From a virus (taxonomy: Duplodnaviria > Heunggongvirae > Uroviricota > Caudoviricetes), in IMG/VR virus record IMGVR_UViG_2582580752_000004: a stretch of DNA of 45,585 nucleotides, one strand, 5' to 3'. This document shows, in pieces, positions 652 through 35,894 of the stretch. Position 1 is the first letter of the stretch, and each line of letters begins with the position of its first letter. Position numbers and translations under genes: made by a program. The notes below the pieces were generated by a model, which worked only from the letters and a program-made list of their open reading frames with translations, did no database searches and was not told the DNA's origin.

Positions 652-884
652 CAGTCAGTGTTTCTGGCTAACCAGCGACGCGCGCCAGCTTCAGTTTTAA
701 ACGTTTTGCTTTTGGTATACGTCATCGCGGTGAACGTACCGTCCTGGTTGGGAAACACGCCGCATACCAGAGATTCGTTGTTGCCAAGATCGATAGTATC
801 CATGCTGACCTCATTTCCCCTTAACGCCGGGGTAGCGGAACAAAAACCTGCTGCATAGTTATTAAAGTTGAACCCTGCCGTCAT
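651..884 (-). CDS. Hypothetical small protein (77 aa), proximal gene of the rexAB-position operon
   Basis: ORF with GAGG about 8 nt upstream of the ATG at 884; stop overlaps the start of the 216-aa ORF (translational coupling). Confidence 0.4.
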   Translation of the reverse strand: MTAGFNFNNYAAGFCSATPALRGNEVSMDTIDLGNNESLVCGVFPNQDGTFTAMTYTKSKTFKTEAGARRWLARNTD

Positions 885-982
885 GTTCTTACGCCTCGGG
901 CTGGCTACTTAACCCCTGACCACTGCCTGGTAACTCGAAGTATTGCCCTGCATTCTGTGGGGCGGGGTGAGGGAATGAATGA

Positions 983-1011
983 AGTTTAGAAAAATGAACA
1001 TTTAAGGTCAA
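983..1011 (-). promoter_or_regulatory. Candidate sigma70 promoter for the two-gene operon (TTGACC, 17-bp spacer, TAAACT on the minus strand)
   Basis: Hexamer match by eye in the 211-bp gap between the cI stop and the small ORF. Confidence 0.25.
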
Positions 1012-1095
1012 TGTTTTTTTATCAAAACATTTTAAGCAGGCAGCTGTTACGCCATCACTACGATGGCATACAGTTAATCAAATAGATGAGGTTGG

Positions 1096-1734
1096 TTAAA
1101 TATCTTGTTGAATTTTAAAGCATACTCCCAATATGCAAGATAGATCATCCAGCATAATTGAAGGGTAGCGAGGATTCGTGGGGACTAAAAGAATATCCGG
1201 CCCTTCTATCTCCAGTTTGCGAATGACAGGCGTTGTGGTCCCTTTGGGTAAGGCAAGGACAATATTTCCTGGTTGTACGATTCGATCGGGATCAACAAAA
1301 ACTGTTGAACCATTTGGGATGGAAACTCCACCACCAGATGTCGACATACTGTCACTCTCTAGAACAACAGCAAAGGTATTGGCCGGGATTTCTCCGACAA
1401 GCTGCACACAAGAGGTTATTGAGGAATTTTTCATATAATCACTCCAGCTTGCTGCCTGCTGAAGTGATAGTAGCGGAACCGTTTTTATCGGCGGTAAAGA
1501 TAGATCAAGCGAATCACCTGTATTTAACTCTCCTCCATTAAGAAGCCAATTTTCGTTTACTTTCAATATCTTTGCCAGTGAACTTATGTAACGCGAGGAC
1601 GGCGCTCCTCCACCGTTCATCCATTGACTTACGGAGCCTTTTGATGCGCCAGTGGCATTGACAAGGTCTTTGCCTTTCAAGTTTAGCGCATGCATACGTT
1701 GGGTTATGCGTTCAGATATTGTTTGCTTGTTCAT
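1096..1734 (-). CDS. cI-like prophage repressor (N-terminal HTH, C-terminal S24 LexA-type autopeptidase)
   Basis: 212 aa; HTH region GASKGSVSQW, Ser in the DSMS motif and a downstream Lys (VIRKLE) consistent with an S24 Ser-Lys dyad. Divergent from the cro-like gene. Confidence 0.85.
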   Translation of the reverse strand: MNKQTISERITQRMHALNLKGKDLVNATGASKGSVSQWMNGGGAPSSRYISSLAKILKVNENWLLNGGELNTGDSLDLSLPPIKTVPLLSLQQAASWSDYMKNSSITSCVQLVGEIPANTFAVVLESDSMSTSGGGVSIPNGSTVFVDPDRIVQPGNIVLALPKGTTTPVIRKLEIEGPDILLVPTNPRYPSIMLDDLSCILGVCFKIQQDI

Positions 1735-1825
1735 GTTTTGATTTTAAAACACAGATGGTTTTGTTTCTTGACTTTCTTTGGTTTTGATTATTAAACTTTT
1801 GGCGTTCAGTTTTATGGAGCGACTC
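1735..1825. promoter_or_regulatory. Divergent immunity promoter/operator region with two 16-bp palindromic operator-like sites (GTTTTGATTTTAAAAC at about 1735-1750; GTTTTGATTATTAAAC at about 1781-1796)
   Basis: Two near-identical inverted-repeat sites between the divergent repressor and cro-like genes; TTGACT -35-like hexamer at about 1768-1773. Confidence 0.5.
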
Positions 1826-2068
1826 ATGAAAAAATCAGAAGTATTAGGCTATTTTGGCGGAGTTGTTAAAACAGCCGCCGCTCTAGGAACGTCAAAAACC
1901 ACAGTCAGCATGTGGGGGGAAGACGTTCCGTGGAAATGGGCGTTGCTAATTCAGGCAGTCACTGCCGGGGCGCTCAAATATGAGTTACACATACCGACGG
2001 TTGTCATTCCCGATTCTGATCATAATCCGCCTTCTAACCAAGGGGGGATTCATGAAAATCAAGCATGA
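1826..2068 (+). CDS. Cro-like HTH regulator
   Basis: Small ORF divergent from the repressor; GGAG SD 7 nt upstream of the ATG at 1826; HTH-like TAAALGTSKTTVSMW. Confidence 0.6.
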   Translation: MKKSEVLGYFGGVVKTAAALGTSKTTVSMWGEDVPWKWALLIQAVTAGALKYELHIPTVVIPDSDHNPPSNQGGIHENQA

Positions 2069-2477
2069 ACACATCCGCATGGCGATGAATGCCTGGGCGC
2101 ATCCGGACGGCGAAAAAGTACCGACTGCGAAGATTACCAAAGCGTATTTCGAACTGGGTATGACGTTCCCGGAACTGTATGACGACAGCCATCCGGAAGC
2201 CCTGGCTCGCAATACCCAGAAAATTTTCCGCTGGATAGAGAAAGACACCCCTGATGCAGTTGAAAAAATTCAGGCGTTGTTACCAGCGATCGAAAAGGCA
2301 ATGCCACCTTTGCTGGTGGCCAGAATGCGCAGCCACAGTTCAACTTATTTTCGGGAGCTGGTGGAGACGCGGGAGCGACTGGTGAGAGACGCTGATGATT
2401 TTGTCGCAGTGGCAATCGCCGGTTTCAATCAGATGAACCGTGGTGGCCCGGCAGGAAATGCTGTGGCAGTACATTGA
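2052..2477 (+). CDS. YdaT-like protein at the cII position
   Basis: Starts MKIKHEHIRMAMNAWAHPDG after a GGGGGG SD; overlaps the cro-like gene end in another frame. The YdaT assignment is from memory. Confidence 0.5.
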   Translation: MKIKHEHIRMAMNAWAHPDGEKVPTAKITKAYFELGMTFPELYDDSHPEALARNTQKIFRWIEKDTPDAVEKIQALLPAIEKAMPPLLVARMRSHSSTYFRELVETRERLVRDADDFVAVAIAGFNQMNRGGPAGNAVAVH

Positions 2478-2542
2478 CTGACAATAGCCATATCGAATCG
2501 CTTCCGGCAATTCGTGAGTAAAAAGATTCGGTATCAGAGGAG

Positions 2543-3655
2543 GTGAGTATGGCTAACGCTTGGCTCAGATTATGGCATGACATGCCAAATGACCCTAAGT
2601 GGCGAACAATTGCCAGGGTGTCAGGGCAGCCAATTGCAACAGTGATGGCAGTGTATATCCACCTCCTGGTGAGCGCGTCACGAAATGTCACGCGAGGTCA
2701 CATTGATGTCACGACAGAAGATTTGGCAAGTGCGCTCGACGTGACAGAAGAGGTAATTGATTCAATTTTGCAGACGATGCAGGGGCGGGTACTTGATGGT
2801 GATTTAATCACTGGATGGGAGAAACGCCAGGTGCTTAAAGAGGACAACGGCAATATTTCGCAAACCGCAAAATCTCCGGCAGAGCGCAAGAGGGCGCAGC
2901 GTGAGAGGGAAAGAAAGCGGGAACAAAATGGCGATTGTCACGGCGCGTCACGAAATGTCACGCACATGTCACGACGAGTCACGACAGATAAAGATACAGA
3001 TAAAGATACAGATAAAGATACAGATAAAGATACAGATAAAGATACAGATCAAGAAGATCAAAACACTATGGTCCATGGCGTAAAAAACGCCACGAACCAG
3101 GCAGGGGATGTTCAGACCGTCAATCCTGGTCAGCCAGCAGGCACGACACCGGAAGCCGATTCAGCGTATGCGCTGAAAGCCGATTCGGGCGCTGTGCAGC
3201 AGGTGATGACCGCAAGGCCGAAGCAATCACACCAACTGCAGCAGCCTGAAGCCGATTCCGCCATTCAGCGGGAAGCCGATCGGGTAGTCCCGGAAAACAC
3301 CGGGCTGTCTGTGGGACGAGTGGATTATCCGGATGTGTTCGAACAGGTCTGGCGGGAGTACCCGTTGCGTGCCGGAGCAAACCCGAAGAAATCCGCATTC
3401 AGTGCCTGGAAGGCCAGATTGCGCGAGGGGGTGCCACCAGAGACCATGCTGGATGGTGTGAGGCGTTACGCGAGATACCTGGCGGCGACCGGGAAAGCGG
3501 GAACGGAATTTGTTCAGCGAGCGACGACGTTTTTTGGGCCGGACCGGAATTTTGAAAACCCCTGGTTGCTCCCGGTAAGCGGCACGAACAACCAGCGTTG
3601 TGTGAATCATATTTCTGAACCGGATACCGAAATTCCGCCGGGATTCAGGGGGTGA
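2543..3655 (+). CDS. Phage replication initiation protein (O-like/DnaT-like) with internal (DKDT)x5 repeat
   Basis: 370 aa, immediately upstream of the DnaC-like gene; GGAGG SD; contains iteron-like DNA repeats. Confidence 0.6.
   Translation: MSMANAWLRLWHDMPNDPKWRTIARVSGQPIATVMAVYIHLLVSASRNVTRGHIDVTTEDLASALDVTEEVIDSILQTMQGRVLDGDLITGWEKRQVLKEDNGNISQTAKSPAERKRAQRERERKREQNGDCHGASRNVTHMSRRVTTDKDTDKDTDKDTDKDTDKDTDQEDQNTMVHGVKNATNQAGDVQTVNPGQPAGTTPEADSAYALKADSGAVQQVMTARPKQSHQLQQPEADSAIQREADRVVPENTGLSVGRVDYPDVFEQVWREYPLRAGANPKKSAFSAWKARLREGVPPETMLDGVRRYARYLAATGKAGTEFVQRATTFFGPDRNFENPWLLPVSGTNNQRCVNHISEPDTEIPPGFRG
2673..2963. repeat. Two copies of a 21-bp direct repeat GCGCGTCACGAAATGTCACGC (about 2673-2693 and 2943-2963), each followed by further GTCACG hexamers; candidate ori iterons
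   Basis: Exact 21-bp repeat read by eye; four to five GTCAC(G) hexamers in each cluster. Confidence 0.6.
2987..3046. repeat. 12-bp tandem repeat (GATAAAGATACA) x5 inside the replication initiator gene
   Basis: Five perfect tandem copies encoding DKDT x5; anchored to the ORF frame at 2901. Confidence 0.85.
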
Positions 3656-3661
3656 TGTGGC

Positions 3662-4408
3662 ATGAAAAACATTGCGGCAGCCGGGGTTCTTGAACGTATT
3701 CGCAGACTTGCACCACCGGCGTCGGTTCCACCGTACCGGACGGTGGAGGAGTGGCGGGAATGGCAACTTGCTGAAGGACGAAAACGCAGCGAGGAGATTA
3801 ACCGCCAGAATCACCAGTTGCGGGTGGAAAAAATCCTGAATCGTTCGGGCATCCAGCCTCTGCACAGCAAATGCTCGTTTGCGAATTATCAGGTGCAGAA
3901 CGACGGGCAAAAATACGCGCTGAGCCAGGCCAAATCCATAGCTGACGAACTGATGACCGGGTGCACGAATTTTGTGTTCAGCGGTAAAACCGGCACCGGG
4001 AAAAATCACCTTGCAGCGGCGATGGGTAACCGGCTGATGGCGAAGGGGCGCAGCGTGATTATCGTCACCGTGTCTGATGTCATGAGCGTGTTGCATGACA
4101 GCTACGACAACGGCAAATCCGGGGAAAAATTTTTACAGGAGCTTTGCAGTGTTGATTTGCTGGTCCTGGATGAAATAGGCGTTCAGCGGGAGACGAAAAA
4201 CGAGCAGGTGGTATTACACCAGATAATTGATCGCCGGACAGCATCACTGTGCAGTGTCGGGATGTTAACAAACCTGAATCATGCCGCAATGAGTACGCTT
4301 CTTGGTGAGAGGATTATGGACCGCATGACCATGAACGGTGGTCGATGGGTGACGTTTAACTGGGATAGCTGGCGTCCAAATGTCAGCAATATGAGGGTTG
4401 TGAAGTAA
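3662..4408 (+). CDS. DnaC-like replicative helicase loader (AAA+ ATPase)
   Basis: Walker A GKTGTGKNHLAAA, Walker B LLVLDEIG; 248 aa; directly follows the initiator gene. Confidence 0.85.
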   Translation: MKNIAAAGVLERIRRLAPPASVPPYRTVEEWREWQLAEGRKRSEEINRQNHQLRVEKILNRSGIQPLHSKCSFANYQVQNDGQKYALSQAKSIADELMTGCTNFVFSGKTGTGKNHLAAAMGNRLMAKGRSVIIVTVSDVMSVLHDSYDNGKSGEKFLQELCSVDLLVLDEIGVQRETKNEQVVLHQIIDRRTASLCSVGMLTNLNHAAMSTLLGERIMDRMTMNGGRWVTFNWDSWRPNVSNMRVVK

Positions 4409-4429
4409 TTTTGTCCGGAGGAAATTTTA

Positions 4430-5200
4430 ATGGAAACCGTATCTGACGCACTGAAAGCACTGAAAAAAGCCTCTTCACATGTGGTGGCAGCTCGCCTTGG
4501 AATCAGTCGTGAAGAGGCTGTCAACGAGCTGTGGGAACTCAAAAGAAATGGCGTCGTTGATAAAACTGGTCACACCTGGTTTCTGGCTGGCGAAGGTGAA
4601 TCCCGGGTAACCGAAGAGCGGCCAGTAAAATCTGAAGCACAGGATATGCTGACCGGGGAGGTCGAACAAAAAGTTACCGCAGACATGATGATTGAGTTTA
4701 TCGGTCAGGATGGGGCTAAAACGTGTGAGGAACTGGCGGGTAAGTTCGGTGTCAGTACTCGCAAGGTTGCTTCCACGCTGGCGGTGGTAACCGCAACGGG
4801 GCGGCTGGCACGCGTTAATCAGAACGGTAAATTTCGTTACTGCATGCCGGGCGATAATTTACCAGCAGAGCCGAAAGCCGCGCTGGTAACGGAAAGTGAT
4901 GGTAAGGCCTTTCCTCAGCCAGCAGGTGCTGCGTTACCAGTCCGGGAAGCCGCAACACAGGAAGAAATTAAAACAGAAACTGTGGCGGACATTGTGCAGC
5001 CGTTGCCATCGTTTACCGAAACGCAAGCAGATGAGCTGATTTTTCCGTCCCTTCGCAGGGCAAACCTGGCGCTGCGCAGGGCGAAAAGTGATGTTCAGAA
5101 GTGGGAGCGAGTCTGCGCCGCGCTGCGGGAGCTGAACAAGCACCGGGATATTGTTCGACAGATTACTGATTCTTCCCGCCGTGTTGTATCGGAAAAGTGA
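4430..5200 (+). CDS. Hypothetical phage protein with two winged-helix-like segments
   Basis: 256-aa ORF starting 22 nt after the DnaC-like stop. Confidence 0.55.
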   Translation: METVSDALKALKKASSHVVAARLGISREEAVNELWELKRNGVVDKTGHTWFLAGEGESRVTEERPVKSEAQDMLTGEVEQKVTADMMIEFIGQDGAKTCEELAGKFGVSTRKVASTLAVVTATGRLARVNQNGKFRYCMPGDNLPAEPKAALVTESDGKAFPQPAGAALPVREAATQEEIKTETVADIVQPLPSFTETQADELIFPSLRRANLALRRAKSDVQKWERVCAALRELNKHRDIVRQITDSSRRVVSEK

Positions 5201-26216: not shown

Positions 26217-28179
26217 TCTTTCACACATTATTGCCGCAGCATTCAATGAACCGCTGCTTCTGGAGCCCGCCTATGCGCGGGTTTTCTTTTGCGCGCTCGG
26301 GCGCGAGATGGGGGCAGCAAGTCTTTCGGTACCACAACAGCAGGTACAGCTTGATGCTCCCGGAATGCTGGCTGAAACGGACGAGTACATGGCCGGAGGT
26401 AAACGACCGGCCCGTGTTTACCGGGTGGTGAACGGTATTGCGGTACTGCCGGTGACCGGCACGCTGGTGCACCGGCTGGGGGGGATGCGGCCATTTTCCG
26501 GAATGACTGGCTATGACGGCATTGTCGCCTGTCTTCAGCAGGCAATGGCAGATAGCCAGGTGCGGGGCATACTGCTGGACATTGACAGTCCGGGCGGGCA
26601 GGCCGCCGGCGCGTTTGACTGCGCTGACATGATTTACCGCCTCCGTCAGCAGAAGCCGGTCTGGGCACTGTGCAATGACACGGCCTGTTCTGCAGCCATG
26701 CTGCTGGCGTCGGCCTGCTCCCGACGGCTGGTTACCCAGACATCCCGTATCGGCTCCATTGGCGTGATGATGAGCCATGTCAGCTATGCCGGTCATCTGG
26801 CGCAGGCCGGTGTGGATATCACGCTGATTTACTCAGGGGCGCACAAGGTGGATGGCAATCAGTTTGAAGCCTTACCGGCAGAGGTTCGCCAGGACATGCA
26901 GCAGCGCATTGATGCGGCGCGCCGGATGTTTGCCGAAAAAGTGGCGATGTTTACCGGTCTGTCTGTTGATGCCGTCACGGGAACAGAGGCCGCCGTTTTT
27001 GAAGGTCAGTCCGGCATTGAGGCCGGGCTGGCGGATGAATTAGTCAATGCGTCGGATGCCATCAGTGTGATGGCCACGGCGCTGAACAGTAATGTCAGAG
27101 GAGGCACTATGCCGCAATTAACTGCAACGGAAGCCGCCGCGCAGGAGAACCAGCGAGTGATGGGGATCCTGACATGCCAGGAAGCGAAAGGACGTGAACA
27201 GCTTGCCACGATGCTGGCAGGACAACAGGGCATGAGCGTTGAACAGGCCCGGGCGATTCTGGCCGCGGCGGCACCGCAGCAGCCGGTGGCATCCACGCAG
27301 AGTGAAGCCGATCGCATTATGGCGTGTGAAGAAGCGAACGGTCGTGAACAACTGGCGGCAACGCTGGCGGCGATGCCGGAGATGACGGTGGAAAAAGCCC
27401 GCCCGATCCTGGCTGCTTCACCGCAGGCGGATGCCGGACCCTCACTCCGTGATCAGATCATGGCACTGGATGAGGCAAAAGGGGCTGAGGCCAGGCTGAC
27501 GGATGAATTAGTCAATGCGTCGGATGCCATCAGTGTGATGGCCACGGCGCTGAACAGTAATGTCAGAGGAGGCACTATGCCGCAATTAACTGCAACGGAA
27601 GCCGCCGCGCAGGAGAACCAGCGAGTGATGGGGATCCTGACATGCCAGGAAGCGAAAGGACGTGAACAGCTTGCCACGATGCTGGCAGGACAACAGGGCA
27701 TGAGCGTTGAACAGGCCCGGGCGATTCTGGCCGCGGCGGCACCGCAGCAGCCGGTGGCATCCACGCAGAGTGAAGCCGATCGCATTATGGCGTGTGAAGA
27801 AGCGAACGGTCGTGAACAACTGGCGGCAACGCTGGCGGCGATGCCGGAGATGACGGTGGAAAAAGCCCGCCCGATCCTGGCTGCTTCACCGCAGGCGGAT
27901 GCCGGACCCTCACTCCGTGATCAGATCATGGCACTGGATGAGGCAAAAGGGGCTGAGGCGCAGGCTGAACAACTGGCTGCCTGCCCGGGAATGACTGTGG
28001 AGAGCGCCCGGGCTGTGCTGGCTGCGGGATCAGGTAAGGCAGAACCGGTCTCTGCATCCACAACCGCCCTGTTTGAACGCATCATGGCGAACCATTCACC
28101 GGCAGCGGTACAGGGTGGCGTGCCACAGACGTCAGCAGACGGTGATGCGGACGTGAAAATGCTCATGGCCATGCCATGA
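26206..28179 (+). CDS. C: Head maturation protease C (S49/ClpP-like) with in-frame scaffold (Nu3-like) C-terminal region; contains a 156-codon tandem duplication
   Basis: 657-aa ORF in the lambda C position; residues ADELVNASD...DEAKGAEA occur twice in tandem. Confidence 0.85.
   Translation: MRRNLSHIIAAAFNEPLLLEPAYARVFFCALGREMGAASLSVPQQQVQLDAPGMLAETDEYMAGGKRPARVYRVVNGIAVLPVTGTLVHRLGGMRPFSGMTGYDGIVACLQQAMADSQVRGILLDIDSPGGQAAGAFDCADMIYRLRQQKPVWALCNDTACSAAMLLASACSRRLVTQTSRIGSIGVMMSHVSYAGHLAQAGVDITLIYSGAHKVDGNQFEALPAEVRQDMQQRIDAARRMFAEKVAMFTGLSVDAVTGTEAAVFEGQSGIEAGLADELVNASDAISVMATALNSNVRGGTMPQLTATEAAAQENQRVMGILTCQEAKGREQLATMLAGQQGMSVEQARAILAAAAPQQPVASTQSEADRIMACEEANGREQLAATLAAMPEMTVEKARPILAASPQADAGPSLRDQIMALDEAKGAEARLTDELVNASDAISVMATALNSNVRGGTMPQLTATEAAAQENQRVMGILTCQEAKGREQLATMLAGQQGMSVEQARAILAAAAPQQPVASTQSEADRIMACEEANGREQLAATLAAMPEMTVEKARPILAASPQADAGPSLRDQIMALDEAKGAEAQAEQLAACPGMTVESARAVLAAGSGKAEPVSASTTALFERIMANHSPAAVQGGVPQTSADGDADVKMLMAMP
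27032..27967. repeat. Perfect 468-bp in-frame tandem duplication (2 copies) within the C/Nu3 gene
   Basis: Minus-strand ORF pairs in the track are identical at a 468-bp offset (27107/27575, 27118/27586); junctions carry GAGGC...GGCTG microhomology. Confidence 0.85.
27577..28179 (+). CDS. Putative nested scaffold protein (Nu3-like) from an internal in-frame start
   Basis: Strong internal SD AGAGGAGG plus ATG (MPQLTATEAAAQ...) in the C frame; the same SD/ATG also occurs at 27109 because of the duplication. Confidence 0.4.
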   Translation: MPQLTATEAAAQENQRVMGILTCQEAKGREQLATMLAGQQGMSVEQARAILAAAAPQQPVASTQSEADRIMACEEANGREQLAATLAAMPEMTVEKARPILAASPQADAGPSLRDQIMALDEAKGAEAQAEQLAACPGMTVESARAVLAAGSGKAEPVSASTTALFERIMANHSPAAVQGGVPQTSADGDADVKMLMAMP

Positions 28180-32135: not shown

Positions 32136-32567
32136 ATGTTTCTGAAAACAGAACAATTTGAATATAACGGTGTGTCCGTCACGCTTTCCGAATTGTCTGC
32201 GCTGCAGCGTATTGAGCATCTTGCCCTCCTGAAACGGCGTGCAGAACAGGCAGAATCCAGCGGCAACCTGCAGGTAAGCGTGGAAGATCTCGTCAGAACC
32301 GGCGCGTTTCTGGTGGCGATGTCCCTGTGGCATAACCATCCGCAGAAAACGGCATCACCGTCAATGAATGAGGCTGTGATGCAGATCGAACAGGAGGTGC
32401 TCACCACCTGGCCTGCGGATGCCATTGCCCGGGCGGAAGATGTGGTGTTGCGTCTGTCCGGGATGAGCGGGGCTGTTCATGCGGATACTGACAGCACCGA
32501 AGTGGCGAAAAATAACGCGCTGACTGATGATGATTTTTCTGCGGGAAAGTCTTCGACGGCGAGCTGA
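32136..32567 (+). CDS. G: Tail assembly chaperone (lambda gpG-like)
   Basis: MFLKTE-FE-NGV-VTLSELSALQRIEHLAL-KR-AEQAES matches gpG; slippery heptamer near the 3' end. Confidence 0.85.
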   Translation: MFLKTEQFEYNGVSVTLSELSALQRIEHLALLKRRAEQAESSGNLQVSVEDLVRTGAFLVAMSLWHNHPQKTASPSMNEAVMQIEQEVLTTWPADAIARAEDVVLRLSGMSGAVHADTDSTEVAKNNALTDDDFSAGKSSTAS

Positions 32568-33007
32568 ATTTTGCCCTCAGACTGGCGCGTGAGATGGGGA
32601 GGCCTGACTGGCGCGCCATGCTTGCCGGGATGACATCCACCGAATATGCCGACTGGCGACATTTTTACCGTACGCATTATTTTCTCGATACCCAACTGGA
32701 TATGCATTTTTCCGGGCTGACGTACGCCGTACTCAGCCTGTTTTTTTGCGATCCGGATATGCATCCCTCTGATTTCAGTCTGCTTGCCCCCCGGCGTGAG
32801 GAAGCGCAGACGGAGATGCCGGATGAGGAAAAAATGCTGATGCAGAAAGCGGCAGGACTTGCCGGAGGCGTCCGGTTCGGTGGGGACGGAGGGCGCGATA
32901 TTTTATCGTCTGCGGATGTGGCGGATGTCATGGTGGATGATGCCGCATTAATGATGGCTTCAGCGGGGATTCCGGGAGGTGTGAGATATGTCCCAGCCGG
33001 TTGGTGA
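32552..33007 (+). CDS. T: gpT-like extension made as a G-T fusion by -1 programmed ribosomal frameshift at GGGAAAG (about 32552-32558)
   Basis: Slippery heptamer G GGA AAG near the end of G; the -1 frame reads into the ORF containing MGRPDWRAML, overlapping the start of H. Confidence 0.7.
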   Translation, partial: FDGELNFALRLAREMGRPDWRAMLAGMTSTEYADWRHFYRTHYFLDTQLDMHFSGLTYAVLSLFFCDPDMHPSDFSLLAPRREEAQTEMPDEEKMLMQKAAGLAGGVRFGGDGGRDILSSADVADVMVDDAALMMASAGIPGGVRYVPAGW

Positions 33008-35894
33008 TCTTGTTATTGACCTGAGTCTGGATGCGGTCCGTTTCGATGAGCAGATGAGCCGGGTAAGGCGTCATTTTTCAGGTCTGGATACCGACGTCAA
33101 AAAAACCGCCAGTGCTGTTGAACAGGGCCTGAGCCGCCAGGCGCTGGCTGCACAAAAAGCCGGGATTTCCGTCGGGCAGTATAAAGCGGCCATGCGAACC
33201 CTGCCCGCACAGTTTACGGATATCGCCACGCAGCTTGCCGGTGGTCAGAATCCCTGGCTGATCCTGCTGCAACAGGGCGGTCAGGTGAAGGACTCCTTCG
33301 GCGGGATGATCCCCATGTTCAGGGGACTTGCCGGTGCGATCACCCTGCCGATGGTCGGGGTCACCTCGCTGGCGGTGGCGACAGGTGCGCTGGCGTACGC
33401 CTGGTACCTGGGGGATTCCACGCTTTCAGCGTTTAATAAAACCCTGGTTCTTTCCGGTAATCAGTCCGGACTGACTGCCGATCGCATGCTGACGCTCTCC
33501 AGAGCCGGACAGGCCGCAGGGCTGACGTTTAACCAGGCGAGAGAGTCACTGGCAGCCCTGGTGAATGCCGGTGTGCGTGGTGGTGAACAGTTTGATGCCA
33601 TCAACCAGAGTGTCGCGCGTTTTGCTTCTGCATCCGGTGTGGAGGTGGACAAGGTTGCAGAGGCTTTCGGAAAACTGACCACCGACCCGACGTCGGGGCT
33701 GATTGCGATGGCGCGCCAGTTCCGTAACGTGACGGCAGAGCAGATTGCGTATGTTGCGCAGCTGCAGCGTTCCGGTGATGAGGCCGGGGCCTTACAGGCG
33801 GCGAACGATATCGCCACGAAAGGCTTTGATGAGCAGACCCGTCGCCTGAAAGAAAACATGGGGACACTGGAGACCTGGGCGGATAAAACAGGGAAGGCGT
33901 TCAAATCGATGTGGGATGCCATTCTGGATATCGGTCGTCCTGAGTCCTCAGCGGATATGCTCGCCAGTGCACAGAAGGCATTTGATGAGGCGGATAAAAA
34001 ATGGCAGTGGTACCAGAGCCGGAGCCAGCGCCGGGGAAAAACCGCCTCTTTCCGGGCCAACCTTCAGGGCGCATGGAATGACCGGGAAAATGCCCGTCTG
34101 GGGCTGGCAGCGGCCACGCTGCAGTCGGATATGGAAAAAGCCGGTGAACTGGCCGCCAGGGACCGGGCCGAACGGGACGCATCACAGCTGAAGTATACCG
34201 GAGAGGCGCAGAAGGCGTATGAGCGTCTGCTGACGCCGCTGGAGAAATATACCGCCCGTCAGGAAGAACTGAATAAGGCCCTGAAAGACGGGAAAATCCT
34301 GCAGGCGGATTACAACACGCTGATGGCGGCGGCGAAAAAGGATTATGAATCGACGCTGAAAAAGCCGAAGTCGTCAGGAGTCAAAGTGTCAGCCGGTGAG
34401 CGTCAGGAAGACCTGACGCATGCGGCGCTGCTGGCGCTTGAAACCGAGCTCCGGACGCTGGAGAAGCACAGCGGAGCGAATGAGAAAATCAGCCGGCAGC
34501 GCCGTGATTTATGGAAGGCGGAAAGTCAGTATGCGGTCCTGAAAGAGGCTGCCACGAAACGACAGTTATCTGAGCAGGAAAAATCCCTGCTGGCCCATGA
34601 GCAAGAGACGCTGGAGTACAAACGCCAGCTGGCTGACCTGGGCGACAAGGTTGAACACCAGAAACGCCTGAATGAGCTGGCACAGCAGGCGGCGCGGTTT
34701 GAGCAGCAGCAGGGCGCGAAGCAGGCAGCCATCAGCGCAAAAGCCCGCGGCCTCACCGACCGTCAGGCGCAGCGGGAGTCGGAAGAGCAGCGCCTTCGTG
34801 ACGTGTACGGTGATAATCCGGCTGCGCTGGCGAAGGCCACATCTGCACTGAAGAACACCTGGTCTGCGGAGGAGCAGCTTCGTGGAAGCTGGATGGCCGG
34901 GCTGAAGTCCGGCTGGGGCGAGTGGGCAGAAAGTGCGACGGACAGTTTTTCGCAGGTTAAAAGCGTGGCCACGCAGACCTTTGACGGTATTGCACAGAAT
35001 ATGGCAGCGATGCTGACCGGCAGCGAACAGAACTGGCGTGGTTTCACCCGTTCTGTGCTCTCCATGCTGACAGAGATTTTTCTGAAGCAGGCGATGGTGG
35101 GGATAGTCGGGAGTATCGGCAGCGCCATGGGTGGTGCTTTCGGTGGTGGTGCGTCTGCCTCCACGGGGACGGCCATTCAGGCTGCGGCGGCGAACTTCCA
35201 TTTCGCGACCGGGGGATTTACGGGGACGGGGGGTAAATATGAACCTGCGGGGATTGTTCATCGCGGGGAGTTTGTCTTCACGAAGGAAGCAACCAGCCGG
35301 ATTGGCGTCGGCAACCTGTACCGCCTGATGCGGGGCTATGCGGAAGGTGGTTATGTGGGCGGTGCCGGAAGTCCGGCGCAGATGCGGCGGACGGAAGGCA
35401 TTAATTTTAATCAGAACAATCACGTGGTGATTCAGAACGACGGCACCAACGGACAGGCGGGGCCGCAGCTGATGAAGGCGGTGTATGACATGGCCCGCAA
35501 GGGGGCGCAGGATGAGCTCCGGCTGCAGTTGCGTGATGGCGGTATGTTATCCGGGGAGCGGGCGATGAAAACCTTTCGCTGGAAAGTGAAGCCGGATATG
35601 GAGGTGAACTCGCAGCCATCGGTGCGTGAAGTGCGTTTTGGTGACGGGTATTCGCAGCGTATGGCGGCGGGGCTGAATGCTGACCTGAAAACATACCGTG
35701 TGACGCTTTCCGTGACCCGGGAGGAGGCCCGACATCTGGAGGCATTCCTGGCAGAGCACGGTGGCTGGAAGGCGTTTCTGTGGACACCGCCTTATGCCTG
35801 GCGGCAGATAAAGGTGACCTGTGCCGCCTGGTCATCACGGATTCGCATGCTGCGGGTTGAATTCAGTGCCGAGTTTAAGCAGGTGGTGAACTGA
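32988..35894 (+). CDS. H: Tail tape-measure protein (lambda gpH-like), here with no stop before the M-homologous segment
   Basis: 968-aa ORF: about 859 aa collinear with lambda H, then 109 aa collinear with lambda M in the same frame. Confidence 0.85.
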   Translation: MSQPVGDLVIDLSLDAVRFDEQMSRVRRHFSGLDTDVKKTASAVEQGLSRQALAAQKAGISVGQYKAAMRTLPAQFTDIATQLAGGQNPWLILLQQGGQVKDSFGGMIPMFRGLAGAITLPMVGVTSLAVATGALAYAWYLGDSTLSAFNKTLVLSGNQSGLTADRMLTLSRAGQAAGLTFNQARESLAALVNAGVRGGEQFDAINQSVARFASASGVEVDKVAEAFGKLTTDPTSGLIAMARQFRNVTAEQIAYVAQLQRSGDEAGALQAANDIATKGFDEQTRRLKENMGTLETWADKTGKAFKSMWDAILDIGRPESSADMLASAQKAFDEADKKWQWYQSRSQRRGKTASFRANLQGAWNDRENARLGLAAATLQSDMEKAGELAARDRAERDASQLKYTGEAQKAYERLLTPLEKYTARQEELNKALKDGKILQADYNTLMAAAKKDYESTLKKPKSSGVKVSAGERQEDLTHAALLALETELRTLEKHSGANEKISRQRRDLWKAESQYAVLKEAATKRQLSEQEKSLLAHEQETLEYKRQLADLGDKVEHQKRLNELAQQAARFEQQQGAKQAAISAKARGLTDRQAQRESEEQRLRDVYGDNPAALAKATSALKNTWSAEEQLRGSWMAGLKSGWGEWAESATDSFSQVKSVATQTFDGIAQNMAAMLTGSEQNWRGFTRSVLSMLTEIFLKQAMVGIVGSIGSAMGGAFGGGASASTGTAIQAAAANFHFATGGFTGTGGKYEPAGIVHRGEFVFTKEATSRIGVGNLYRLMRGYAEGGYVGGAGSPAQMRRTEGINFNQNNHVVIQNDGTNGQAGPQLMKAVYDMARKGAQDELRLQLRDGGMLSGERAMKTFRWKVKPDMEVNSQPSVREVRFGDGYSQRMAAGLNADLKTYRVTLSVTREEARHLEAFLAEHGGWKAFLWTPPYAWRQIKVTCAAWSSRIRMLRVEFSAEFKQVVN
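35565..35894 (+). CDS. M: Minor tail protein (lambda gpM-like), internal start within the fused H-M frame
   Basis: MKTFRWKVKP...RVEFSAEFKQVVN matches gpM; GGAG SD upstream of its ATG. Confidence 0.7.
   Translation: MKTFRWKVKPDMEVNSQPSVREVRFGDGYSQRMAAGLNADLKTYRVTLSVTREEARHLEAFLAEHGGWKAFLWTPPYAWRQIKVTCAAWSSRIRMLRVEFSAEFKQVVN

What the first reader, a model, noticed from the sequence alone, without database searches (positions are those of the whole stretch)
35545..35570. Tape-measure gene H reads in frame into minor tail gene M
In lambda, as I recall it, H ends with a TGA that overlaps the M start. Here the H frame has no stop and continues through all 109 codons of M, giving a 968-aa ORF. The +1 frame across the junction would read PGSGR then stop, resembling the lambda H end, which suggests a 1-nt indel in a G run just upstream. 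M keeps its own SD and ATG and could still be made separately.
Basis: partly seen in the sequence, partly recalled or inferred. Interest (0 to 1): 0.45.

Follow-up and report, generated by a model that had tools for sequence, protein, structure and literature searches.

The report
One-base insertion fuses tail genes H–M
A single extra base, seen in no other sequence searched, removes the stop codon of the tape-measure gene H in this lambda-like E. coli prophage, so H reads straight into the next tail gene M; this is an ordinary frameshift lesion or a base-calling error, not a new gene arrangement.

Summary
ORF 32988..35894 (+) encodes 968 aa: 859 codons of tape-measure H joined in frame to all 109 codons of minor tail protein M.

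The cause is one extra base. The window reads TTATCCGGGGAGCGGGCGATGA. The closest relatives read TTAT-CGGGGAGCGGGCGATGA, where H ends ...LSGSGR-TGA and overlaps the M start as ATGA, as in lambda. The extra base is the C next to the G run (CC instead of C); the GGGG run itself is unchanged.

The insertion is private to this window:
- None of 2,666 matching places in 1,154 complete E. coli genomes has it.
- The exact junction has no match in the IMG/VR, JGI metagenome or GTDB contig sets, while the one-C version has 22 IMG/VR matches.
- The 968-aa protein is not on record.
- The few junction-spanning proteins in large protein libraries are singletons from fragmented genes or a deletion fusion.

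H is otherwise intact, and M is 100% identical to a relative's M. M keeps its GGAG and ATG.

Published lambda structures put the H C-terminus in the tip lumen and the M N-terminus on the outside of the ring. A four-residue link is therefore probably incompatible with normal assembly (inference).

Verdict: a recent private frameshift in a decaying prophage (about 0.6) or a sequence error (about 0.3). Low interest.

The parts
32988..35894 (+). Fused H-M open reading frame, 968 codons plus stop
   Evidence: ORF list and translation. Pfam finds TMP_2 at residues 54-256, Tape_meas_lam_C at 633-707 and Phage_min_tail at 861-967 in the one polypeptide.
32988..35564 (+). Tape-measure gene H portion (859 codons). 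The last four codons changed from GSGR-stop to GERA.
   Evidence: tblastn with the H protein of E. coli 99-3311: residues 1-858 of 859 aligned, 98.4% identity, no gaps. Relatives annotate an 859-aa tape measure protein.
35551..35552 (+). CC dinucleotide. One of these two C's is the private inserted base that shifts the H frame.
   Evidence: Alignments with E. coli strain 9000, VT1-Sakai, OkiPb01683 and Stx1_111698 show a single gap at this column. All best matches to the 81-nt junction in complete E. coli genomes are 80 nt long with one gap.
35553..35558 (+). GGGGAG, the Shine-Dalgarno sequence for M. The GGAG ends 6 nt before the ATG. It is unchanged by the insertion.
   Evidence: Read directly from the sequence. 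It is identical in the relatives.
35566..35568 (+). TGA, the ancestral H stop codon within the ATGA overlap. It is now out of frame for H.
   Evidence: The +1 frame reads PGSGR* here. Relatives annotate H ending and M starting with a 4-nt overlap, and so does lambda.
35565..35894 (+). Minor tail (distal tail ring) gene M, 109 codons plus stop. Its stop overlaps the L start at 35894.
   Evidence: 100% identical over 109 aa to the M protein of E. coli 99-3311. Pfam Phage_min_tail.
35534..35536 (+). TGA that closes the ancestral M frame nine codons upstream of the M ATG. Only +1 shifts downstream of it can fuse H to M.
   Evidence: Frame translation ...APAAVA*WRYVI..., read against the sequence.

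Best explanation
A genuine, recent and private single-base insertion lies 13-14 nt before the ancestral H stop codon. It is an extra C that turns TTA TCG GGG AGC GGG CGA TGA into TTA TCC GGG GAG CGG GCG ATG A. It replaces the last four H residues (GSGR with GERA), puts the TGA of the ATGA stop/start overlap out of frame, and sends every ribosome that translates H on through M. The product is a 968-aa H-M fusion. Free M can still be made by initiation at its own GGAG-ATG. The termination-linked coupling expected at an ATGA overlap (inference from the gene layout, not measured) is lost. The fusion is a lesion, not a designed or programmed arrangement. It sits in a lambdoid prophage of an EHEC/EPEC-type E. 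coli that carries other signs of decay or rearrangement. It most likely impairs tail assembly. In lambda, the H C-terminus sits as a trimeric coiled coil in the closed tip lumen on the gpI tripod. The gpM N-terminus (K2, W6) lies on the outside of the hexameric ring. A four-residue link therefore cannot let both parts take their normal places. Shown here: the insertion, its uniqueness, and the integrity of the rest of H, M and the late operon. Inferred: that it exists in the DNA rather than only in the assembly, and that it harms tail assembly.
For: One-base gap against relatives that are otherwise identical across the junction. None of 2,666 places in 1,154 complete E. coli genomes carries the 81-nt junction; the best matches are 80/81 with one gap. 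The mutated 32-mer has 0 hits in genome contigs, viral contigs and metagenome contigs, while the one-C 31-mer has 22 IMG/VR hits. The 968-aa protein is not on record. Against two close prophages, this is the only unpaired 1-nt indel inside a late gene across about 22 kb; the other unpaired ones lie between genes. The assembly is therefore not indel-rich. The same window has a second private lesion in a morphogenesis gene: a 468-nt in-frame tandem duplication in gene C. Its junction is a hybrid of two short imperfect repeats, which points to replication slippage rather than an assembler join. IS3-family and IS110-family transposase ORFs lie between nanS-p and the holin gene. Relatives also carry tail-gene lesions; for example, VT1-Sakai J is annotated 'truncated protein by a mutation'. 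Structural basis for predicted harm: the gpM hexamer ring and the gpH 818-849 coiled coil in the lumen on the gpI tripod (PMC10721106); gpH cleaved to gpH* and gpHC, and gpM K2/W6 contacting the external Stf collar (PMC12617516).
Against: No reads are available, so a consensus error cannot be excluded. H is otherwise intact and M is 100% identical to a relative's M, which is what an error in an intact gene would also look like. The window's source genome is in none of the collections searched, so its sequencing quality is unknown. No experiment shows that the fusion is non-functional.
Confidence: 0.6

Rival explanations
1. Sequencing or assembly error. The true DNA has one C, so H and M are separate with the normal ATGA overlap, and the fusion exists only in the record.
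For: The allele is unique among thousands of relatives. The rest of H and M is intact. The context is a short C run next to a G run in a GC-rich stretch. Other junction-spanning 'fusion' proteins in public data are singletons from genes broken by many frame switches; for example, P0001's genome has H in five pieces and G in two.
Against: The window is not indel-rich: there is no other unpaired 1-nt indel inside a late gene across about 22 kb against two close relatives. A two-base C run is not a classic homopolymer-error site. The window's other private oddity, the 468-nt duplication, has a hybrid microhomology junction that an assembler would not create, so this genome does carry real private changes.
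Confidence: 0.3
2. A real and tolerated, or even useful, fusion. The phage assembles working tails using H-M (or gpH* after normal cleavage plus a gpHC-M fragment) together with free M from internal initiation.
For: Lambda gpH is normally cleaved near its glycine-rich C-terminal region. A normal gpH* could therefore still be released from H-M, and only three of six gpHC copies are seen in virions (PMC12617516). M's own SD and ATG are intact. The four H residues that changed lie beyond the helix resolved in lambda, residues 818-849 of 853.
Against: No relative keeps the arrangement. The lumen-versus-outside topology of the H C-terminus and the M N-terminus argues against correct placement. Three or six extra 12-kDa domains would have to fit in a closed lumen that is plugged by gpI.
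Confidence: 0.07
3. Programmed recoding. A ribosomal +1 or -2 shift near CCGGGGAG restores the normal H end, by analogy with the G-GT frameshift in the same operon.
For: The operon does use a programmed -1 frameshift; the GGGAAAG site is conserved at 32543-32549. An SD-like GGGGAG lies within the junction.
Against: The 0 frame (TTA TCC GGG GAG CGG) has no slippery heptamer in register and no hungry or stop codon. The site is not conserved, because relatives simply lack the extra base.
Confidence: 0.02

Closest known systems
Bacteriophage lambda H/M gene pair (J02459: H 10542..13103, M 13100..13429)
   Same: Same gene order G-T-H-M-L-K-I-J. Same Pfam domains (TMP_2, Tape_meas_lam_C, Phage_min_tail). 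Same ATGA motif at the M start. Same kind of H C-terminal tail (lambda ...GGLFSGGGR; relatives of the window ...GGMLSGSGR).
   Different: In the window the ATGA no longer stops H, because one extra base upstream puts H in the M frame. H here has 859 codons against 853 in lambda.
Lambdoid prophages of EHEC/STEC E. coli (for example E. coli 99-3311 and O145 RM9154-C1 prophages next to tccP2; VT1-Sakai; strain 9000)
   Same: 95-100% protein identity across Nu1 to stf, and the same flanking sodC, lom and tccP2 cargo. The junction is identical apart from one base.
   Different: All of them annotate separate H (859 aa) and M (109 aa) with a 4-nt overlap. They have a single-copy 501-aa gene C, against 657 aa here.
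Sporadic H-M, T-M or truncated-H-M 'fusion' proteins in public protein sets (P0001, P0062, P0027, P0152, P0031)
   Same: These polypeptides also run from H (or T) sequence into M because of an indel or a deletion.
   Different: They have different breakpoints. All are singletons, mostly from genes with several frame switches or with internal deletions. None has the LSGERA-M junction, and none is a full-length H-M.
Lambda G-GT programmed -1 frameshift fusion
   Same: It is a fusion of two adjacent tail-assembly reading frames in the same operon. The slippery GGGAAAG is present in the window at 32543-32549.
   Different: G-GT is made by ribosomal slippage at a conserved heptamer and is conserved among phages. 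H-M here is hard-wired by a private DNA insertion and is not conserved.

Membership tests
Lambda-type tape measure protein gpH | Pfam TMP_2 (PF06791) and Tape_meas_lam_C (PF09718) domains above the gathering score | tested here: met
   231.2 bits (cut-off 30.2) and 73.8 bits (cut-off 23).
Lambda-type tape measure protein gpH | Full-length collinearity with the H proteins of close prophages | tested here: met
   Residues 1-858 of 859 align, 98.4% identity, no gaps.
Lambda-type tape measure protein gpH | Own stop codon, giving a free C-terminus just after the C-terminal helix that docks on gpI | tested here: not met
   No stop until 35892-35894. The ancestral TGA at 35566-35568 is out of frame.
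Minor tail / distal tail protein gpM (Phage_min_tail, PF05939) | Pfam domain over the full length, with near-identity to known M proteins | tested here: met
   125.8 bits (cut-off 39), profile positions 1-108 of 108. 100% identity over 109 aa to the M of E. coli 99-3311.
Minor tail / distal tail protein gpM (Phage_min_tail, PF05939) | Independent start codon with a Shine-Dalgarno sequence | tested here: met
   GGAG at 35555-35558 and ATG at 35565. Whether it is used while H ribosomes read through it was not testable.
Lambdoid H/M stop-start overlap (ATGA) | The H stop TGA shares bases with the M ATG | tested here: not met
   The motif is present, but H is in the wrong frame to use it. It is met in lambda and in every relative examined.
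Programmed or conserved gene fusion (G-GT-like recoding, or a natural tape-measure/distal-tail fusion family) | The arrangement is conserved in independent relatives | tested here: not met
   None of 2,666 places in complete E. coli genomes. 0 exact hits in three contig collections. No full-length fusion among the listed best hits of two protein searches: 120 of 180 listed and 150 of 4,882 listed.
Programmed or conserved gene fusion (G-GT-like recoding, or a natural tape-measure/distal-tail fusion family) | A slippery sequence in register at the junction | tested here: not met
   The 0-frame codons TTA TCC GGG GAG CGG GCG contain no X XXY YYZ heptamer.
Degenerating (defective) lambdoid prophage | Private disruptive changes or mobile-element insertions in phage genes | tested here: met
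   The H-M frameshift, the private 468-nt duplication in gene C, and IS3-family and IS110-family transposase ORFs at 15605-18069.
Degenerating (defective) lambdoid prophage | Loss of ability to produce infectious particles | not testable with these tools
   This needs induction and plaque, transduction or EM assays.

The most novel reading that the evidence does not exclude
The insertion is real and the prophage still makes infective tails. This would mean lambda-type tail assembly tolerates a tape-measure protein whose C-terminal fragment carries a whole distal-tail-protein domain. The extra domain might be removed with gpHC or take a non-canonical place, with the ring built from internally initiated M. 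It would be a natural experiment on what the H C-terminus and gpH cleavage are needed for.
Probability: 0.05. Interest if true: 0.4.

Novelty: already known. Interest (0 to 1): 0.08.

Why it matters
It matters little beyond annotation. The locus should be annotated as a frameshifted H followed by M (or checked against reads), not as a new 968-aa tail protein. If the insertion is real, this prophage is probably defective in tail assembly on its own. That bears on whether its cargo (sodC, lom, and tccP2 at the window edge) can be mobilised without help from other prophages. The case also shows that only +1 shifts within the last 30 nt or so of H can produce such a fusion. This explains why similar fusions appear sporadically as singletons in public data.

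Tried and rejected
- **Same junction elsewhere (DNA).** I searched 5,426 complete E. coli genomes, INPHARED phages, IMG/VR, JGI metagenomes and GTDB species representatives. There were no matches. The control with the one-C junction gave 22 IMG/VR hits.
- **The protein or its source contig.** An exact-sequence look-up of the 968-aa H-M protein and of the 657-aa duplicated C protein found neither on record. The source genome could not be identified and no closer sister could be compared.
- **A conserved H-M fusion family.** I ran a word-indexed search with 60 aa of H plus M and a full HMMER scan of 1.84 billion representatives with 120 aa of H plus M. The junction-spanning hits were singletons with frame switches, short fragments, or a deletion fusion. 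I rejected them as precedents for a functional fusion.
- **A G-run length change as the cause.** Rejected, because GGGG is the same length in the nearest allele and the difference is CC versus C.
- **Programmed frameshifting at the junction.** Rejected for lack of a slippery site and lack of conservation.
- **Minus-strand ORFs over the junction (35407..35838 and 35547..35759).** These are mechanical ORFs in GC-rich coding DNA. No relative annotates a gene there.
- **Structure prediction.** Not run. A monomer model would not settle the assembly question.

Full report
**1. The observation**

The window holds a lambda-type late operon. The ORF listing gives 32988..35894 (+) as one 968-aa frame. 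Its translation runs from an H-type tape-measure sequence into ...RLQLRDGGMLSGERA-MKTFRWKVKPDMEV...AEFKQVVN*.

The M ATG at 35565 lies 2577 nt after the H ATG, so the two are in frame. The neighbouring frame reads ...YPGSGR-stop across the same bases. Pfam finds TMP_2 (residues 54-256), Tape_meas_lam_C (633-707) and Phage_min_tail (861-967) in the single polypeptide.

In J02459, H is 10542..13103 and M is 13100..13429. The junction reads ...TCC GGA GGT GGA CGA TGA AGA, that is SGGGR-stop with an ATGA overlap.

**2. The cause**

I aligned the junction with VT1-Sakai, two Stx phages, and the prophages of E. coli strains 9000 and OkiPb01683. The alignment shows exactly one gap column:
- Window: TTATCCGGGGAGCGGGCGATGA
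- Strain 9000: TTAT-CGGGGAGCGGGCGATGA

Strain 9000 is otherwise identical for about 200 nt upstream of the junction and about 90 nt downstream. Its H therefore ends TTA TCG GGG AGC GGG CGA TGA (LSGSGR-stop).

The window has one more C, giving TTA TCC GGG GAG CGG GCG ATG (LSGERA-M). The GGGG run has the same length in both sequences.

All relatives examined annotate H and M separately with a 4-nt overlap.

**3. How common it is**

- An 81-nt junction query matched 2,666 places in 1,154 of 5,426 complete E. coli genomes. None was identical. The best matches were all 80 nt long with one gap, 98.8% identity.
- The exact 32-mer with CC has no match in the GTDB species genomes, IMG/VR or the JGI metagenome contigs.
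- The 31-mer with one C has 22 IMG/VR matches.
- The 968-aa protein is not on record in the 153-billion-gene index.

I also looked for any conserved H-M fusion in two protein libraries.
- A word-indexed search used the last 60 residues of H plus M.
- A full HMMER scan of 1.84 billion cluster representatives used the last 120 residues of H plus M.

Almost all listed hits are either M proteins of about 109 aa starting at residue 1, or tape-measure proteins (whole or partial) that stop at the junction. The few that cross the junction fall into three groups:
- Singletons with several frame switches: P0001, P0027, P0062, P0071, P0137 and P0159.
- P0235, an 88-aa fragment that also crosses the junction.
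- An internal deletion that joins mid-H to M residue 13: P0152.

P0001 comes from a genome where H is split into five called genes and G into two.

**4. Context**

The window is a lambdoid prophage of EHEC/EPEC type.
- The late region is 97-99% identical over 97-100% of its length to prophages of O145, O157 and other strains.
- Gene by gene, Nu1 to the side tail fibre genes are collinear and 94-100% identical in protein to the E. coli 99-3311 prophage. H is 98.4% identical without gaps and M is 100% identical.
- sodC and lom lie in the tail region, and a cut tccP2 is at the right end.

Against two close relatives, the junction insertion is the only unpaired single-base indel inside a late gene across about 22 kb. 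The other 1-nt gaps either come in compensating pairs inside divergent patches or lie between genes; a 5-nt indel is also intergenic. The assembly is therefore not riddled with indels.

The window does carry other private or disruptive features (section 7). The G-T slippery heptamer GGGAAAG is conserved at 32543-32549.

**5. Likely mechanism and consequence**

*Shown here:* every ribosome that translates H now continues into M. M's GGAG (35555-35558) and ATG (35565) are untouched.

*Shown here:* in the ancestral sequence the M frame is open for only nine codons upstream of its ATG, back to a TGA at about 35534. Only +1 shifts within the last 30 nt or so of H can produce a fusion rather than a truncation. 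That is why such fusions are rare and sporadic.

*From the literature:*
- Six gpM form the distal tail ring.
- The gpH C-terminal helix (residues 818-849 of 853) forms a trimeric coiled coil inside the tip lumen, seated on a gpI tripod that plugs the tube (PMC10721106).
- gpH is cleaved after tail assembly into gpH* (roughly residues 1-710) and a gpHC fragment of about 14 kDa. Three copies of gpHC stay bound to gpI.
- gpM residues K2 and W6 contact the side-fibre collar on the outside of the tube (PMC12617516).

*Inferred:* a four-residue link between a lumenal H C-terminus and an externally exposed M N-terminus cannot satisfy both positions. Three to six extra 12-kDa domains would not fit in the plugged lumen. 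The fusion is therefore most likely deleterious for tail assembly, unless the extra domain is removed or tolerated.

Free M would depend on internal initiation, without the termination-reinitiation coupling expected at an ATGA overlap (inference from the gene layout, not measured).

**6. Real mutation or error?**

This cannot be decided without reads.

For a real mutation:
- The assembly is otherwise clean of indels.
- A two-base C run is not a classic homopolymer-error site.
- The genome carries another private structural change that looks biological.
- IS elements are present.
- Lesions in tail genes are common in such prophages; VT1-Sakai J is annotated as truncated by a mutation.

For an error:
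- The allele is unique.
- The flanking coding sequence is otherwise perfectly intact.
- Other junction fusions in public data come from fragmented gene calls.

I put a real private lesion at about 0.6, an error at about 0.3, a tolerated or functional fusion at about 0.07, and programmed recoding at about 0.02.

**7. Noticed in passing**

Gene C (S49 prohead protease with the nested scaffold gene) is 657 aa here, against 501 aa in relatives.
- The cause is an in-frame 468-nt tandem duplication, 27018-27485 and 27486-27953.
- Its junction is contiguous in none of 1,918 places in 1,298 complete E. coli genomes.
- The junction is a hybrid of two short imperfect repeats that flank the unit in single-copy relatives.
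- The repeated unit contains AGAGGAGGCACTATG, probably the nested scaffold start, so there may be two nested starts.

IS3-family and IS110-family transposase ORFs lie at 15605-18069, between nanS-p and the holin gene. Three tRNA genes lie at 12090-12341.

**8. Verdict**

The fused ORF is real in the sequence. It is explained by one private extra base. It belongs to a well-known class of event, a frameshift lesion or base-call error in a lambdoid prophage tail gene. It is not a new gene architecture. Interest is low.

Noticed in passing
window 26206-28179 (+); repeat copies 27018-27485 and 27486-27953: Gene C (S49 prohead protease with nested scaffold gene) is 657 aa instead of 501 aa because of an in-frame 468-nt tandem duplication. 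The junction is a hybrid of two short imperfect repeats. It is contiguous in none of 1,918 places in complete E. coli genomes, and the protein is not on record. The unit contains a likely nested scaffold SD and ATG (AGAGGAGGCACTATG), so there may be two nested starts.
   Followed up: partly
window 15227-18297: About 3 kb is inserted between the nanS-p/SASA esterase gene (13421-15256, whose C-terminal end is replaced) and the holin gene (18444). It contains an IS3-family transposase ORF (rve domain, 15605-16495, +) and an IS110-family transposase ORF (16825-18069, -). Related prophages show IS629 and ISEc20 here.
   Followed up: partly
window 12090-12341 (+): Three tRNA genes lie downstream of Q. 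ARAGORN calls them Met (CAT), Arg (TCG) and Arg (TCT). RefSeq annotates the first as tRNA-Ile in relatives, which may reflect a modified CAT anticodon (my inference, not tested).
   Followed up: no
window 32543-32549 (+): The GGGAAAG slippery heptamer for the programmed G-GT -1 frameshift is conserved near the end of gene G.
   Followed up: no
window 38118-38642 (-), 42317-42913 (+), 44695-45585 (-): Cargo genes sit within and beside the tail region: sodC (100% identical to a relative), a lom/ail-family gene, and a tccP2 effector gene with internal 141-nt repeats that is cut by the window end.
   Followed up: no
L031 (GCA_046576045.1, JAVRGT010000002.1) 760-4522: A related prophage in this public assembly has G split in two and H split in five called genes. 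The last H piece is fused to M through a different +1 shift (...GGLFLRRWT-MKTF...). This is either an indel-rich assembly or a heavily decayed prophage.
   Followed up: partly
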